Both the position numbers and the translations under genes were made by a program. Source: Escherichia coli (GTDB lineage Bacteria; Pseudomonadota; Gammaproteobacteria; Enterobacterales; Enterobacteriaceae). From it: a stretch of 64,000 bases of DNA. The notes under the pieces were generated by a model. That model was not told where the DNA came from. It made no database searches and saw only the letters and a list, made by a program, of their open reading frames with translations. Positions 8,074 through 12,583 of the stretch are shown in pieces; position 1 is the stretch's first letter; each line of letters opens with the position of its first letter. Location: assembly GCF_013315695.1 (NCBI RefSeq), contig NZ_CP054353.1; one strand, given 5' to 3'.

Positions 8074-8973
8074 TTACGCGGAAAAAAAGGCGATGAGGAT
8101 CGGCACTAACAGGCTGAGAATAAAACCGTGAACAATCGCCGCCGGGACCATATCCAGCCCGCCAGTACGTTGAAGAACGGGCAGGGTGAAATCCATCGAC
8201 GTCGCACCGCATAAGCCCAGTGCAGTAGAGCGGCTACGGCGAATCAGCCCAGGGATTAACATAATAGCAATCAGCTCACGGGCCAGATCATTAAAAAACG
8301 CCGCGCTCCCGATTACTGGACCAAAAGATTCGGTCAATAAAATACCGGAAAGAGAATACCAGCCGAAACCGGAGGCCATTGCCAGCGCGGTATTGATGGG
8401 AAGATCAAGAATAAAGGCGTTAATTAAACCACCAATTAATGAACTGGCAACCACCACCACGGCGACAATCATTCCCCGGCGATTAAGGACAATCTGCTTT
8501 AAGGTCATGCCATTATTGCGCAACTGAATACCGACGAGGAAAAGTAGCAGAATTAAGGTGTATTCACTGGCTTTGGTCGCGTGTTGTAAGAAAGCCAGTC
8601 CACTCAGACCAATGGCAAAACCAATCACTACTACGCCGCACAGTTTTAGCGACTCCAGTGCCATCGCAATACGCGACGGGAGTTTTTCTTGATGATGGTG
8701 GTTGCGCCATGGCAGGCCGCGCTCCAGCCACAACAACGCAATAATATTGCAGAGTAAAATAATGGTAATGCTGACGGAGGAATAATGCAGAATCGCCAAC
8801 AGGTTACTGGCGAGGTTATCGAGAAACGCCAGACTGATACCCATAAAAAAGAGAATGAGGTAAACCATCCAACTTAATAGCTGATTAATAACTCTTAATG
8901 CAGCTTTTTGGCGAAGCGGAATGAGGTAACCCACAATCAGGGGAACCAGAATGATTAACAGCCCAGAAAACAT
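8074..8973 (-). CDS. lysO: lysine exporter LysO (YbjE)
   Basis: Polytopic membrane protein. Sequence MFSGLLIILVPLIVGYLIP matches the K-12 YbjE N-terminus. The start codon (complement cat) is at 8971-8973. Confidence 0.85.
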   Translation of the reverse strand: MFSGLLIILVPLIVGYLIPLRQKAALRVINQLLSWMVYLILFFMGISLAFLDNLASNLLAILHYSSVSITIILLCNIIALLWLERGLPWRNHHHQEKLPSRIAMALESLKLCGVVVIGFAIGLSGLAFLQHATKASEYTLILLLFLVGIQLRNNGMTLKQIVLNRRGMIVAVVVVASSLIGGLINAFILDLPINTALAMASGFGWYSLSGILLTESFGPVIGSAAFFNDLARELIAIMLIPGLIRRSRSTALGLCGATSMDFTLPVLQRTGGLDMVPAAIVHGFILSLLVPILIAFFSA

Positions 8974-9099
8974 GAAAACCCAGTCCTTGCAAAGATGAAG
9001 TCGAAATGCGCGATGACACACTACTGAAAGCGGAAGGACGAGTAAAGTTGCAATTAAAAGGAAATGTTATGCAAAAGGAGCAGTAGAGTATTCGTTTTC

Positions 9100-10450
9100 A
9101 TTTAAAGATGTTCTTGCGCTTTAATTACAAACCGCACCGGTGTTGGTGGCGTCAAAATCGCTGAAGCGTTCCCCGAAGGCCGGGGCAGCCCACATGGATG
9201 TGGGCTGAGGGCGCGTCTTACAAGGATAATGAGATGGACGCTCCAGATTTTACGGTATCAAAGTACCAGACTGGATCGTTGCAATACGTCCTGAAAAATT
9301 AGGGGCGTCCACATGAAAGTATCAACTCTTGGTATCGACCTGGCAAAGAACGTTTTTCAGCTTCATGGTGTCGATCATGAAGGCCATACTATTTTGCGTA
9401 AAAAGCTCACCCGGGCTAAGTTTGTTCAGTTTGTGATTCAACTGGAACCTTGTCTGATTGGCATGGAAGCCTGCTCATCCAGTCATTATTTTGCGCGATT
9501 ATTCACCCGCTATGGTCATGAGGTAAAACTCATACCTCCGCAGTATGTGAAGCCTTATGTGAAAACGAACAAGACGGATGCAGCAGATGCTGAAGCAATC
9601 TGCGAAGCGGTAACCCGTCCGAATATGCGTTTTGTTCAGATAAAAACCGAAGAGCAGCAGGCCGTTTTAGCGTTACACACTGAACGGGGAATACTTATCC
9701 GTGAGCGGATTGCCTGTGCCAATAGTTTAAGAGCCACACTTGCTGAGTTTGGTATTACGATTGCGGCCGGACAAAGCCATTTAACACGTGAGCTGCCAGC
9801 CATTCTGGAGGATGGCGAAAATGGTTTATCTCCCTTTGTCAGAACCAGCATCTACAGACAGTCTAAACATATCCGGGAACTTGAAGAACAAGTTAAACAG
9901 GTAGAAGAAGCTCTGGCCTCCTGGTATAGAACGCAGGAAGCCTGCCAGAGAATGGCCAAGATCCCGGGGGTTGGCATGCTAACGGCCACTTATGTGGTAG
10001 CAGCAGTGGGTAATGCCCGACAATTCAGTACCGCAAAGCAGTTCGCTTCATGGCTGGGGCTGACACCAAAGGAACATTCCAGCGGCGGGAAACAGCAACT
10101 GGGAGGGATCAGCAAACGTGGAGATGGATATTTCCGATACCTGCTGGTTCACGGCGCACGCGCACTTACCGCCTGGGTCAACCGAAACGGCGCGGTTGAG
10201 GAGAATTCCTGGCTTCAGGGACTCCTTGAGCGGAAGCACTACAATGTAGCTGTTGTCGCCATGGCGGCAAAAACAGCGAGGATCATGTGGTCAATGTTGT
10301 CACACAATACTGAATATCAACCTCGGCAGCTCGCCTGACACAAGGTCAGTCAATCTGACGAGGTGCTGAAAAAAAGTTAACGTCCTGGTAGGTGCAGGTG
10401 ACTTCAGAAGATGGCAAAACAGGTAAGACCGCAGGCAGGATACACCGAGA
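9100..10450 (+). mobile_element. IS110-family insertion sequence; ends not resolved (this family has no terminal inverted repeats)
   Basis: A DEDD-type transposase gene is flanked by structured non-coding DNA between lysO and yohP. It sits exactly at a break in K-12 synteny. Confidence 0.6.
9313..10338 (+). CDS. IS110-family transposase/recombinase (DEDD RuvC-like N-domain with a C-terminal Tnp domain)
   Basis: 341 aa. MKVSTLGIDLAKNVFQLHGVD...MEACSSSHYFAR...KTNKTDAADAEAICEA is the canonical IS110/IS1111 N-terminus. RBS aggggcg precedes the ATG. Confidence 0.9.
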   Translation: MKVSTLGIDLAKNVFQLHGVDHEGHTILRKKLTRAKFVQFVIQLEPCLIGMEACSSSHYFARLFTRYGHEVKLIPPQYVKPYVKTNKTDAADAEAICEAVTRPNMRFVQIKTEEQQAVLALHTERGILIRERIACANSLRATLAEFGITIAAGQSHLTRELPAILEDGENGLSPFVRTSIYRQSKHIRELEEQVKQVEEALASWYRTQEACQRMAKIPGVGMLTATYVVAAVGNARQFSTAKQFASWLGLTPKEHSSGGKQQLGGISKRGDGYFRYLLVHGARALTAWVNRNGAVEENSWLQGLLERKHYNVAVVAMAAKTARIMWSMLSHNTEYQPRQLA

Positions 10451-10839
10451 GGTAACAAGGGCAAGTTAGCCCGTAGAGGATGATTGGTACCTGCCTGGCG
10501 GATTTCATCATGGTTCGGGATAAAAATCCCATCAGAAACCGGATATATGGCTGCACCTACCCGTTTTATTACATAACTGAAGAAAGCATTGCATTCCGGG
10601 AGCGTCCATATATGTTACCTCGCGCCCGACCCGGTAGCCGTAAGGGATAAGCCGAGGGCACCGCGCAGCGGCGATTTTGTTCGCCAGAGCCCGGGGGTGC
10701 AGGGGGCGGCGGCGATTGGCCGCCCCCTGCGCGCTCCTTGCGCCAGTGATTATATGAAGCAATGCACATGACAGGAGCGCAACAGGATGAGAGACTGAAC
10801 TATTCTCGTTATTTTCGGACCTGATGACATTAATTAATT

Positions 10840-10923
10840 TTAAAATATCATCTTAAATACGCCAGTCACCACCAGTAGCCCAATCAGGAAAATAATCAAT
10901 ACAGCCCAGAGTATAATTTTCAT
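10840..10923 (-). CDS. yohP: small membrane protein YohP (27 aa)
   Basis: Minus-strand translation is MKIILWAVLIIFLIGLLVVTGVFKMIF, matching K-12 YohP as I remember it. Absent from the ORF track, which lists only ORFs of 60 aa or more. Confidence 0.85.
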   Translation of the reverse strand: MKIILWAVLIIFLIGLLVVTGVFKMIF

Positions 10924-11146
10924 TGGCGTTCCTTTATTTGTGAGTGCTGAATAAGTATAGGAAAAAACGAAGCCCTTTGCCGCTATTCATAAACGATTAA
11001 GATAAATCGGAAGATATCATTCGCTTAGTGTATATTTTTCTGGATATGTCGTTTTATTGCCACTGATGTATTGCCACGCGAAACTAAAAAATATATCGCA
11101 ACACACGGTAATCTCCGCGCACCTTTTCTTACCTGATTATTCCCCC

Positions 11147-12583
11147 ATGAATCGTGATTCTTTTTATCCAGCCATCGCCTGTTTTCCGCTGTTACTGATG
11201 CTAGCCGGGTGTGCGCCTATGCATGAAACCCGCCAGGCGTTAAGCCAGCAAACACCCGCGGCACAAGTTGACACCGCATTACCCACGGCGCTGAAAAATG
11301 GTTGGCCAGACAGCCAATGGTGGCTGGAGTATCACGATAATCAACTCACCTCATTAATTAATAACGCACTACAGAACGCACCGGATATGCAGGTGGCTGA
11401 ACAGCGCATTCAGCTGGCTGAAGCCCAGGCGAAGGCAGTTGCCACTCAGGATGGTCCACAGCTCGACTTTTCTGCGGATATGGAGCGGCAAAAAATGTCG
11501 GCAGAAGGGTTAATGGGGCCGTTTGCTTTGAACGATCCTGCCGCAGGTACGACCGGTCCGTGGTACACCAACGATACTTTTGGCTTAACGGCGGGCTGGC
11601 ATCTCGATATCTGGGGAAAGACTCGGGCGGAGGTTACTGCTCGCCTCGGTACGGTTAAAGCACGGGCGGCGGAACGCGAGCAAACCCGCCAATTGCTGGC
11701 TGGCAGCGTAGCCCGCCTGTACTGGGAGTGGCAAACCCAGGCGGCGTTAAACACGGTCTTACAGCAAATCGAAAAAGAGCAGAACACCATTATCGCCACC
11801 GATCGCCAGCTATATCAGAACGGGATTACTTCTGCAGTTGAAGGTGTGGAAACCGATATTAATGCCAGCAAAACCCGGCAGCAGCTCAACGATGTCGCGG
11901 GGAAAATGAAAATTATTGAGGCACGGTTAAGTGCGCTCACCAACCACCAGACAAAGTCATTGAAGCTTAAACCGGTCGCGTTGCCGAAAGTGGCAAGTCA
12001 GCTTCCTGATGAACTCGGGTACTCCTTACTGGCCCGGCGGGCAGATTTGCAGGCGGCGCACTGGTACGTTGAGTCATCGTTAAGCACTATTGATGCGGCA
12101 AAAGCGGCATTTTATCCTGACATCAACCTGATGGCCTTTCTGCAACAGGATGCGTTGCACTTAAGCGATCTGTTCCGTCATTCCGCGCAGCAAATGGGCG
12201 TTACGGCAGGCCTGACGCTACCCATTTTCGATAGTGGTCGTCTTAACGCCAATCTCGATATCGCAAAAGCCGAAAGCAACTTGTCTATCGCCAGCTACAA
12301 CAAAGCGGTGGTTGAAGCGGTAAATGACGTGGCGCGGGCGGCCAGCCAGGTTCAGACACTGGCGGAGAAAAACCAGCATCAGGCGCAAATTGAGCACGAT
12401 GCCTTGCGTGTGGTAGGTCTTGCGCAGGCGCGCTTTAACGCGGGCATCATTGCTGGTTCCCGCGTCAGCGAAGCCAGAATCCCCGCGCTGCGTGAGCGGG
12501 CCAATGGCCTGTTATTGCAAGGGCAGTGGCTGGATGCCTCCATTCAACTCACCGGTGCGCTGGGCGGGGGTTACAAACGCTGA
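11147..12583 (+). CDS. mdtQ: outer-membrane efflux lipoprotein (OprM/NodT family) MdtQ
   Basis: MNRDSFYPAIACFPLLLMLAGC lipobox, then outer-membrane-factor repeats. Intact here (a pseudogene in K-12). Confidence 0.85.
   Translation: MNRDSFYPAIACFPLLLMLAGCAPMHETRQALSQQTPAAQVDTALPTALKNGWPDSQWWLEYHDNQLTSLINNALQNAPDMQVAEQRIQLAEAQAKAVATQDGPQLDFSADMERQKMSAEGLMGPFALNDPAAGTTGPWYTNDTFGLTAGWHLDIWGKTRAEVTARLGTVKARAAEREQTRQLLAGSVARLYWEWQTQAALNTVLQQIEKEQNTIIATDRQLYQNGITSAVEGVETDINASKTRQQLNDVAGKMKIIEARLSALTNHQTKSLKLKPVALPKVASQLPDELGYSLLARRADLQAAHWYVESSLSTIDAAKAAFYPDINLMAFLQQDALHLSDLFRHSAQQMGVTAGLTLPIFDSGRLNANLDIAKAESNLSIASYNKAVVEAVNDVARAASQVQTLAEKNQHQAQIEHDALRVVGLAQARFNAGIIAGSRVSEARIPALRERANGLLLQGQWLDASIQLTGALGGGYKR

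What the first reader, a model, noticed from the sequence alone, without database searches (positions are those of the whole stretch)
9022..10923. IS110-family element sits at a synteny breakpoint joining the ybjE (min ~20) and yohP/mdtQ (min ~48) loci
In K-12, lysO(ybjE) is followed by aqpZ near 0.914 Mb, and yohP lies between mdtQ and dusC near 2.23 Mb. Here the two loci are fused through one IS110-family element. The 2.2-Mb block (yohP to mlrA) is inverted relative to the 0.9-Mb block. That pattern fits an IS-mediated inversion of about 1.3 Mb roughly centred on the terminus, which preserves replichore balance. Only one junction is visible in this window.
Basis: partly seen in the sequence, partly recalled or inferred. 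Interest (0 to 1): 0.6.

Follow-up and report, generated by a model that had tools for sequence, protein, structure and literature searches.

The report
IS-flanked terminus inversion junction, E. coli
This is one end of a 1.3-1.5 million-base flip of the E. coli chromosome around its replication terminus, most likely made by recombination between two oppositely oriented copies of a site-specific insertion sequence; the flip is real, but it has already been described in strains such as SMS-3-5.

Summary
lysO (K-12 0.915 Mb) and yohP/mdtQ (2.229 Mb, inverted) are joined through one IS110-family element. The element itself is window 9228-10613 (1386 bp), not the whole 9022-10923 gap. It sits at one fixed position and orientation inside a TRIP1 repeat, between the left part of TRIP1a and the right part of TRIP1c.

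The junction is no artefact. It occurs in 84 of 5426 complete E. coli genomes. The predicted reciprocal junction, dusC-IS-aqpZ, also occurs in 84, including genomes 99.9-100% identical to the window.

The flipped segment is 1,314,180 bp in K-12 coordinates. Its midpoint lies 18.6 kb from dif. No genome has an IS-free lysO/yohP junction. One genome has lost the second copy scarlessly. Five genomes carry both copies in K-12 order.

SNPs place the exchange within 521 bp spanning the IS 3' end and the adjoining TRIP1.

Best explanation: homologous recombination between two inverted, RNA-guided-targeted IS copies.

The inversion is published for SMS-3-5 and IAI39 (Li 2024; Goodall 2021). Li et al. 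credit the TRIP1 repeats and do not mention the IS. That is the only new point here. Ordinary mechanism; low-to-moderate interest.

The parts
8074..8973 (-). lysO (ybjE), the last gene of the K-12 0.9-Mb block.
   Evidence: It corresponds to the annotated lysO in IAI39 and MG1655. The ORF is listed.
9132..9227 (+). Left 96 bp of TRIP1a, the lysO-aqpZ copy of the TRIP1 repeat. It ends at the insertion point ...ACA(A/G)GG-AT.
   Evidence: The alignment to MG1655 is collinear up to 9227. TRIP1a is defined as starting 158 bp upstream of ybjE (PMC10888264). Locus-specific SNPs at 9140-9165 mark this as the a-copy.
9228..10613 (+). IS110-family (IS1111-group) insertion sequence, 1386 bp. An AT dinucleotide lies on both sides (9226-9227 and 10612-10613), so one AT is counted inside the element.
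   Evidence: The boundaries come from empty sites in MG1655 and from the scarless empty site in KFu014. The same 1386 bp is present in 179 of 5426 genomes.
9234..9244 (+). Left subterminal inverted repeat, ATGGACGCTCC.
   Evidence: Read directly from the sequence. Its reverse complement lies at 10599-10609.
9313..10338 (+). Transposase gene, 341 aa (DEDD_Tnp_IS110 plus Transposase_20 domains).
   Evidence: Pfam PF01548 and PF02371. NCBIfam NF033542, 'IS110 family RNA-guided transposase', scores 359 bits against a cut-off of 140. There are distant hits to solved ISCro4 and IS621 transposases.
10339..10613 (+). 3' non-coding region of 275 bp, the expected location of the seekRNA/bridge RNA in IS1111-group elements.
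   Evidence: The 5' non-coding part is only 85 bp. The architecture matches that described for ISEc11 in PMC11187229. No RNA was demonstrated here.
10449..10457 (+). Candidate target guide GAGGTAACA, the reverse complement of the target T|GTTACCTC immediately right of the insertion point.
   Evidence: 21 of 500 shuffles gave a match at least as long. This is suggestive only.
10599..10609 (-). Right subterminal inverted repeat (GGAGCGTCCAT on the + strand).
   Evidence: Read directly from the sequence.
10614..10783 (+). Right 170 bp of TRIP1c, the yohP-dusC copy. It is in reverse orientation relative to K-12.
   Evidence: It is identical to the MG1655 yohP-dusC spacer on the minus strand from GTTACCTCG onward. 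The locus-specific tail is seen.
10840..10923 (-). yohP, the first gene of the inverted 2.2-Mb block.
   Evidence: It corresponds to annotated yohP in IAI39 and MG1655.
11147..12583 (+). mdtQ (yohG). It is an intact ORF here.

Best explanation
An IS1111-group member of the IS110 family inserts at one fixed position and in one fixed orientation inside TRIP1 repeats. Targeting is probably guided by an RNA made from its 3' non-coding region.

E. coli carries TRIP1a (lysO-aqpZ, 0.915 Mb) and TRIP1c (yohP-dusC, 2.229 Mb) in opposite orientation, at nearly equal distances on either side of dif. When both are occupied, the chromosome holds two inverted repeats of about 1.65 kb each (IS plus TRIP1 arms).

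Host homologous recombination between these repeats flips the 1.3-1.5 Mb between them. Because the flip is nearly symmetric about dif, it swaps replichore arms while keeping gene strand bias and the fork trap. It is therefore tolerated, can be fixed in a lineage, and can flip back.

The window shows junction 1 of this inversion.

Shown here: the anatomy, both junctions, site specificity, the existence of both isomers, and a crossover interval.

Inferred: RecA dependence, RNA guidance, and the order of events.
For: 1. Both junctions exist and are reciprocal. lysO-TRIP1a(L)-IS-TRIP1c(R)-yohP is in 84 genomes. dusC-TRIP1c(L)-IS-TRIP1a(R)-aqpZ is in 84 genomes. The two IS copies are inverted relative to each other.

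2. The IS is site- and orientation-specific. It has the identical insertion point GGGAT|GTTACC at TRIP1a, at TRIP1c, at both hybrid junctions and at a divergent TRIP1-like copy between yegH and asmA.

3. Inversion goes with the IS. An IS-less junction-1 query found no IS-free junction 1 in 5426 genomes: every full-length hit was split by the IS. Only one genome, KFu014, has an IS-free junction 2. Its flanks equal those of SMS-3-5, including a private 1-bp deletion, and the site is scarless. That fits later precise excision.

4. Pre-inversion states and both isomers exist. Eight genomes have lysO-IS-aqpZ and ten have dusC-IS-yohP in K-12 order. Five have both.

5. The crossover can be mapped. 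The two copies in CE10 differ at six SNPs. The junction-1 copy in SMS-3-5 and IAI39 is 'a-type' at all six, and the SMS-3-5 junction-2 copy is 'c-type' at five of the six. The exchange therefore lies in the window-equivalent interval 10222-10742, which is 392 bp of IS 3' end plus 129 bp of TRIP1.

6. IAI39 junction 1 and CE10 site A share a private SNP (9188A) and identical Hcp and LysO proteins, yet differ in arrangement. That implies a recent flip.

7. The flip is symmetric. Its midpoint is 18.6 kb from dif in K-12 and 47.8 kb from dif in MSB1_4I.
Against: The association between the IS and the inversion is not phylogenetically corrected. Most inverted genomes may descend from one or a few events in the IAI39/SMS-3-5 lineage.

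The mapped crossover interval includes 129 bp of TRIP1, so an exchange within TRIP1 itself is not excluded.

Gene conversion is evident. The TRIP1 bases next to the IS are homogenised between copies in CE10 and in SMS-3-5. This could blur the SNP map.

CE10 is an older assembly. Its K-12 order across 1.4-kb repeats could in principle come from reference-guided scaffolding. This caveat is from my own knowledge and was not tested.

RecA dependence and the guide RNA were not tested. The guide match is weak (21 of 500 shuffles).
Confidence: 0.8

Rival explanations
1. Homologous recombination between the TRIP1a and TRIP1c repeats themselves (266-273 bp, about 94% identical) made the inversion. This is the proposal of Li et al. 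2024. Under it the IS copies are bystanders that inserted into TRIP1 before or after the event.
For: K-12 already has the two TRIP1 copies in inverted orientation without any IS. The published interpretation is in PMC10888264. The mapped crossover interval contains 129 bp of TRIP1. KFu014 has an IS-free junction 2.
Against: No junction 1 lacks the IS in 5426 genomes. Over 5000 genomes lack the IS pair, and none shows either junction. TRIP1 offers six-fold less homology than IS plus TRIP1, and less perfect homology. The KFu014 flanks are identical to those of IS-bearing SMS-3-5, which fits excision after the inversion.
Confidence: 0.13
2. The IS-encoded RNA-guided recombinase itself catalysed, and can reverse, the inversion. 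It would do so by exchanging the two identical IS-right-end/TRIP1 junctions. This would be a natural bridge-recombinase megabase inversion.
For: The crossover interval 10222-10742 contains the IS right end/TRIP1 boundary at 10613/10614. IS110-family recombinases can make programmed inversions when engineered (titles and abstracts listed; my own knowledge of the 2024 IS621 work).
Against: The known chemistry pairs a donor (the joined IS ends) with a target. Recombination between the left end of one copy and the right end of the other would give an IS dimer plus an empty site, not one IS at each junction. Exchange between two like junctions has not been described. Nothing here distinguishes this from ordinary homologous recombination.
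Confidence: 0.04
3. The junction is an assembly artefact, a contig mis-joined at a repeated IS.
For: The IS is a 1.4-kb repeat present in 2-4 copies in these genomes. Short-read assemblers cannot bridge such repeats.
Against: The same junction and its reciprocal partner are present in 84 complete genomes from many sources and sequencing platforms. Flank SNPs are consistent between them.
Confidence: 0.01

Closest known systems
TRIP1a/TRIP1c chromosomal rearrangement of E. coli (Li et al. 2024, Genes 15:236, PMC10888264). The SMS-3-5 terminus inversion was also noted by Goodall et al. 2021 (PMC8347550).
   Same: The two loci are the same (ybjE/aqpZ and yohG/yohI). The junction types are the same (ybjE-yohG and aqpZ-yohI). 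The strains are the same (SMS-3-5, IAI39). The extent is the same: they give 1,313,407 bp and I measure 1,314,180 bp in K-12 coordinates. The inversion spans terE, D, A, C and B and leaves the fork trap functional.
   Different: Li et al. attribute the event to the TRIP1 repeats and never mention an IS at the junctions. Here every junction 1, and all but one junction 2, carries a 1386-bp IS inside TRIP1. The crossover maps to the IS 3' end or the adjoining TRIP1.
IS1111-group IS110-family elements with seekRNA/bridge-RNA targeting: ISEc11, ISKpn4, ISPa11, IS4321/IS5075. Also the repeat-targeting relatives IS621 and ISPpu10.
   Same: A single DEDD-type transposase of about 340 aa. Subterminal inverted repeats. 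A long non-coding region downstream of the transposase gene. Insertion at one sequence in one orientation inside a dispersed repeat. A scarless empty site after loss.
   Different: The target differs: TRIP1 at ...TTTTACAGGG-AT-GTTACCTCG..., versus GTGAAAATACTG for ISEc11. The length differs: 1386 bp versus 1433-1443 bp. Similarity to the solved IS621 and ISCro4 transposases is only distant (E about 1e-7 to 1e-8). I could not assign an ISfinder name. The guide RNA is not demonstrated.
Classical terminus- or origin-symmetric inversions between inverted repeats, such as the rrnD-rrnE inversion of E. coli W3110 and IS-mediated inversions in Shigella and EDL933.
   Same: Recombination between inverted repeats on opposite replichores. 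Near-symmetry about dif. Preservation of strand bias and of the fork trap.
   Different: Here the repeat pair is created by a sequence-guided IS landing in a pre-existing pair of inverted host repeats. The breakpoints are therefore predetermined and recur.

Membership tests
IS110 family, IS1111 group (insertion sequence) | A transposase with an N-terminal DEDD/RuvC-like domain (PF01548) and a C-terminal Transposase_20 domain (PF02371). | tested here: met
   PF01548 has E = 3e-15 and PF02371 has E = 1e-24. NF033542 scores 359 bits against a cut-off of 140.
IS110 family, IS1111 group (insertion sequence) | Subterminal inverted repeats, the IS1111-group hallmark that is absent from the IS110 group proper. 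| tested here: met
   An 11-bp ATGGACGCTCC lies at 9234-9244, and its reverse complement lies at 10599-10609. The criterion is taken from PMC11187229.
IS110 family, IS1111 group (insertion sequence) | A long non-coding region downstream, not upstream, of the transposase gene. | tested here: met
   There are 85 bp upstream and 275 bp downstream of the ORF.
IS110 family, IS1111 group (insertion sequence) | Sequence- and orientation-specific insertion without a long target duplication, plus precise excision. | tested here: met
   The same point and orientation are used at four kinds of TRIP1 site. Only an AT is shared at both ends. KFu014 has a scarless empty site.
IS110 family, IS1111 group (insertion sequence) | A seekRNA/bridge RNA whose loops pair with both strands of the target. 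| tested here: inconclusive
   A 9-nt complement to the right target flank lies at 10449-10457, but 21 of 500 shuffles do as well. No Rfam family matches. No RNA data are available.
IS110 family, IS1111 group (insertion sequence) | A circular intermediate with abutted ends that form a promoter. | not testable with these tools
   This needs PCR or sequencing of excised circles.
TRIP1 intergenic repeat (Rudd 1999; Li 2024) | A GC-rich repeat of about 266-273 bp at fixed loci. TRIP1a starts 158 bp upstream of ybjE and ends 70 bp after aqpZ. TRIP1c starts 43 bp after yohI (dusC). | tested here: met
   The MG1655 spacers at both loci share the repeat in opposite orientation. The offsets match the published ones.
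Inversion by homologous recombination between inverted IS copies | One copy of the repeat at each breakpoint, in mutually inverted orientation, with flanks exchanged reciprocally. | tested here: met
Inversion by homologous recombination between inverted IS copies | Both isomers occur among genomes that carry both copies. | tested here: met
   84 genomes are inverted. Five genomes are in K-12 order with both sites occupied: CE10, XJ6.1, JNEC-KY178, Res13-Lact-PER13-34 and LR778147.
Inversion by homologous recombination between inverted IS copies | The crossover lies inside the repeated unit. | tested here: inconclusive
   The interval is 10222-10742. It lies inside the IS-plus-TRIP1 repeat, but it does not separate IS from TRIP1, and gene conversion is evident.
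Inversion by homologous recombination between inverted IS copies | Dependence on RecA. | not testable with these tools
   This needs genetics.

The most novel reading that the evidence does not exclude
The 'TRIP1-mediated' rearrangements reported for E. coli may really be driven by this RNA-guided IS. At the extreme, the IS recombinase itself, rather than RecA, would flip the 1.3-1.5-Mb terminus segment by exchanging the two IS-right-end/TRIP1 junctions. That would be a natural bridge-recombinase megabase inversion switch. The mapped crossover interval includes that boundary, so my evidence does not exclude it.
Probability: 0.04. Interest if true: 0.8.

Novelty: already known. Interest (0 to 1): 0.25.

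Why it matters
The inversion is a lineage marker for the IAI39/SMS-3-5 group and relatives. It is also a clean natural example of a replichore-symmetric flip that leaves dif and the Tus/ter fork trap workable.

The useful increment is a correction to the literature. The breakpoints are occupied by a site-specific IS110-family element that targets TRIP1. The homologous substrate is therefore about 1.65 kb of IS plus repeat, not 266 bp of imperfect repeat.

This explains three things:
- why only TRIP1a/TRIP1c genomes carrying the IS are inverted;
- why the product is always an inversion, since the guided orientation follows the inverted TRIP1 copies;
- why both isomers and a scarless excision product exist.

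Practically, assemblies and synteny-based typing of these lineages should expect either orientation.

Tried and rejected
- **Rfam scan.** A scan of 8800-11200 at E<=1 gave only a chance mir-611 hit. No curated bridge-RNA or seekRNA family matched.
- **Local GC skew.** The profile across the junction is dominated by gene orientation. It says nothing about replichore polarity at this scale.
- **Counting junction 1 with an IS-less query.** This query under-counts: 51 genomes against 84. The tool did not join the two pieces in every genome. I used it only to show that no unsplit, IS-free junction 1 exists.
- **The chimeric short-flank junction-2 query.** It gave 97 genomes at >=80% coverage. That threshold also admits K-12-order sites that carry the IS, so I repeated the search with 1.5-kb flanks and got 84.
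- **ISEc11 as the identity of the element.** Rejected. ISEc11 has a different length and a different target.
- **Transposase-mediated left-end by right-end recombination between copies.** Rejected on product structure. It predicts an IS dimer plus an empty site.
- **Literature searches.** I searched for an IS-based description of this inversion and found none. Touchon 2009 only says that three genomes show 1-2 rearrangements.
- **Lineage of the window.** I could not determine the phylogroup or sequence type of the window's lineage. I also could not tell whether its inversion is independent of that in the IAI39/SMS-3-5 lineage.
Full report
**What is in the window**

Window 1-25 kb is E. coli core chromosome. 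Genes poxB, hcr, hcp and lysO lie on the minus strand, as in MG1655. After an intergenic gap come yohP (-), mdtQ (+), yohF, yohD, yohC, pbpG, dld, bglX, osmF-yehYXW and mlrA. All of these are in the reverse of their MG1655 orientation.

The gap contains a 341-aa ORF at 9313-10338 (+). It carries the two domains of IS110-family transposases, PF01548 and PF02371. It scores 359 bits against NCBIfam NF033542, 'IS110 family RNA-guided transposase', whose cut-off is 140. It has only distant similarity to the solved ISCro4 and IS621 enzymes.

The K-12 positions it quoted are right to within about 1 kb.

**Exact anatomy**

Aligning the gap to MG1655 shows that the left side is collinear with the lysO-aqpZ spacer up to window 9227. 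The right side is collinear with the yohP-dusC spacer, on the opposite strand, from 10612/10614 onward.

The foreign DNA is therefore 9228-10613, 1386 bp. An AT dinucleotide lies at both borders.

The element has:
- 11-bp subterminal inverted repeats (ATGGACGCTCC at 9234-9244, reverse complement at 10599-10609);
- 85 non-coding bases before the transposase gene;
- 275 non-coding bases after it.

This is the architecture of the IS1111 group of the family, as described for ISEc11 (PMC11187229). It is not ISEc11 itself, which differs in length and target.

**The IS sits inside a host repeat**

In MG1655 both spacers contain the same GC-rich repeat of about 270 bp. The two copies are in opposite orientation and neither carries an IS. 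This repeat is TRIP1. TRIP1a lies between ybjE (lysO) and aqpZ. TRIP1c lies between yohG (mdtQ)/yohP and yohI (dusC). The published offsets match (PMC10888264).

In the window, the IS is flanked by the left 96 bp of TRIP1a and the right 170 bp of TRIP1c.

The insertion point, ...TTTTACAGGG-AT|GTTACCTCGCG..., and the orientation relative to TRIP1 are identical at:
- un-inverted TRIP1a (strain MEW);
- un-inverted TRIP1c (CE10);
- both hybrid junctions;
- a more divergent TRIP1-like copy between yegH and asmA (ECONIH1, MS14384).

The 3' non-coding region contains GAGGTAACA (10449-10457). This is the reverse complement of the nine bases beginning at the T of the AT core. It is what a target guide would look like, but 21 of 500 shuffles give a match as long. 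No Rfam family matches. RNA guidance is thus inferred from family membership. It was not shown here.

**The second junction**

I built the predicted reciprocal junction, dusC-TRIP1c(left)-IS-TRIP1a(right)-aqpZ, and searched 5426 complete E. coli genomes. It exists, with the IS in the predicted orientation. With 1.5-kb flanks it is found in 84 genomes. The window's own junction is also found in 84 genomes.

Genomes whose junction-1 flanks are 99.9-100% identical to the window carry both junctions. These are MSB1_4I, OZ547117, MS 21-1, OZ546925 and OZ546911.

| Genome | IS at junction 1 | IS at junction 2 | Enclosed segment |
|---|---|---|---|
| MSB1_4I | 3,405,661-3,407,046 | 1,856,392-1,857,777 | 1,547,883 bp |
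| SMS-3-5 | 910,011-911,396 | 2,313,793-2,315,178 | 1,402,396 bp |

**Symmetry about the terminus**

In MG1655 the two insertion points are 915,111/2 and 2,229,292/3. The distance between them is 1,314,180 bp. dif lies at 1,590,750-1,590,777, which is 18.6 kb from the midpoint.

In MSB1_4I, dif is at 2,583,938-2,583,965. It is 726 kb from one IS and 822 kb from the other. Flipping the segment moves dif by 37 kb in K-12 coordinates and by 96 kb in MSB1_4I, which is under 2% of the chromosome.

Goodall et al. noted that the SMS-3-5 inversion spans terE, D, A, C and B and leaves the fork trap functional (PMC8347550).

A local GC-skew profile of the window was uninformative.

**Which repeat recombined?**

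Li et al. 2024 described exactly these junctions: 68 aqpZ-yohI and 58 ybjE-yohG in 6725 genomes. They described the SMS-3-5 inversion and a more complex state in IAI39. They ascribed them to recombination between TRIP1 repeats. Their text does not mention an IS at the junctions.

My data point to the IS pair as the driver, for five reasons.

1. The IS occurs in only 179 of 5426 genomes, yet every junction 1 contains it. An IS-less junction-1 query returned no unsplit hit.

2. An IS-less junction-2 query returned a single genome, KFu014. Its flanks are identical to those of SMS-3-5 junction 2, including a private 1-bp deletion. The site is scarless (GGGAT|GTTACC). KFu014 still has the IS at junction 1. 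This looks like precise excision after the inversion, as expected for this IS family.

3. Intermediates exist. Eight genomes have lysO-IS-aqpZ and ten have dusC-IS-yohP in K-12 order. Five have both: CE10, XJ6.1, JNEC-KY178, Res13-Lact-PER13-34 and LR778147. So both isomers occur among two-IS genomes, 84 inverted and 5 not.

4. The two copies in CE10 differ at six SNPs.

| Window-equivalent position | CE10 site A | CE10 site C | SMS-3-5 J1 | IAI39 J1 | SMS-3-5 J2 |
|---|---|---|---|---|---|
| 9583 | G | A | G | G | A |
| 9615 | C | A | C | C | A |
| 10174 | T | A | T | T | A |
| 10201 | G | A | G | G | A |
| 10206 | T | C | T | T | T |
| 10221 | G | A | G | G | A |

   The junction-1 copy of SMS-3-5 and IAI39 is a-type at all six. 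The SMS-3-5 junction-2 copy is c-type at five of the six. The first locus-specific base to the right is 10743. The exchange relative to CE10 therefore lies in 10222-10742, which is 392 bp of IS plus 129 bp of TRIP1.

5. IAI39 junction 1 and CE10 site A share a private SNP (9188A) and identical Hcp and LysO proteins, yet differ in arrangement. This argues for a recent flip within one clone.

**Caveats**

- The counts are not corrected for shared ancestry.
- TRIP1 bases next to the IS are homogenised between copies in CE10 and in SMS-3-5, so gene conversion is at work.
- The crossover interval does not exclude the TRIP1 arm.
- CE10 is an old assembly, and its order across 1.4-kb repeats deserves confirmation.
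- I could not decide whether the window's lineage inverted independently. Its flanks are about 2% diverged from IAI39/SMS-3-5 on the lysO side and about 0.7% on the dusC/aqpZ side.
- In this lineage the two IS copies differ at only one base, 9304.

**Mechanism and rivals**

The best-supported account has three steps.

1. A sequence-guided IS lands in the same orientation relative to TRIP1 at two TRIP1 copies that the host keeps inverted on opposite replichores.
2. This creates a perfect inverted repeat of about 1.65 kb.
3. Host homologous recombination flips the intervening terminus-centred segment.

The guided orientation is why the outcome is an inversion and not a lethal deletion. My confidence in this account is 0.8.

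| Rival | Probability | Main point |
|---|---|---|
| TRIP1-only recombination | about 0.13 | Not excluded by the crossover interval, but no IS-free junction 1 exists |
| Catalysis by the IS recombinase, exchanging two like junctions | about 0.04 | Not excluded by the crossover interval, but it has no precedent; left-end by right-end recombination would give the wrong product |
| Assembly artefact | about 0.01 | Excluded for practical purposes by 84 complete genomes with both junctions |

**Novelty and verdict**

The inversion and its breakpoints at the two TRIP1 loci are published for SMS-3-5 and IAI39. IS-mediated, terminus-symmetric inversions are textbook biology. The finding is therefore correct but already known.

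What I did not find in the searchable literature:
- the breakpoints carry a TRIP1-specific IS1111-type element;
- inversion tracks occupancy of both sites;
- both isomers and a scarless excision product exist in nature.

That is a modest refinement of a known case, not a new kind of system.

Noticed in passing
window 25063-64000 (integrase ORF at 25063-26349, - strand; tRNA-Met, tRNA-Arg and tRNA-Arg at 42692-42941): A lambdoid prophage is integrated next to mlrA (yehV), a classic Stx-phage attachment site. It fills the rest of the window. It is 99.63% identical to the MSB1_4I prophage. The window's integrase ORF is intact, whereas in MSB1_4I an ISKpn26 splits it. The window therefore comes from a close relative, not from MSB1_4I itself.
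   Followed up: partly
window 11147-12583 (+): mdtQ (yohG) is an uninterrupted ORF here and is annotated intact in SMS-3-5. It is a pseudogene in MG1655 and has an internal stop in IAI39 and CE10.
   Followed up: no
L004 and L005, 3853-5603 (MS14384 and ECONIH1, yegH-asmA spacer): A divergent TRIP1-like repeat lies between yegH and asmA, next to a relE-fragment/HTH pair. It carries the same IS at the same position. This locus is not among the five TRIP1 loci (a-e) listed by Li et al. 2024. It is the only IS copy in the single-copy genomes I inspected.
   Followed up: partly
L016 383-765 (KFu014, dusC-aqpZ spacer): An inverted genome has a scarless, IS-free hybrid TRIP1 at junction 2. Its flanks are identical to those of SMS-3-5. 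This is a natural example of apparent precise excision of the IS. It would leave only about 270 bp of homology and so 'lock' the inversion.
   Followed up: yes
Alignment A6, window-equivalent 9174-9223 and 10641-10698: TRIP1 bases immediately next to the IS are identical between the two copies within CE10 and within SMS-3-5, but differ between those strains. Distal TRIP1 bases stay locus-specific. This looks like gene-conversion tracts extending out of the IS.
   Followed up: partly
L007 198-5173 (MSB1_4I, upstream of dusC): A 3-hydroxybenzoate/gentisate catabolic cluster (mhbT, gtdA, maiA, 3-hydroxybenzoate 6-monooxygenase) abuts dusC. MG1655 and CE10 have yohJK at that position.
   Followed up: no
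L011 and L010 (MSB1_4I 2.556-2.656 Mb, around dif): Inside the big inversion there is a further rearrangement. The block tqsA...rspB runs opposite to the adjacent lsrK...ydfJ block. The joints are marked by prophage remnants and by IS2, IS4 and IS1. hipA is missing next to dif. IAI39 is also reported to have a nested re-inversion.
   Followed up: no
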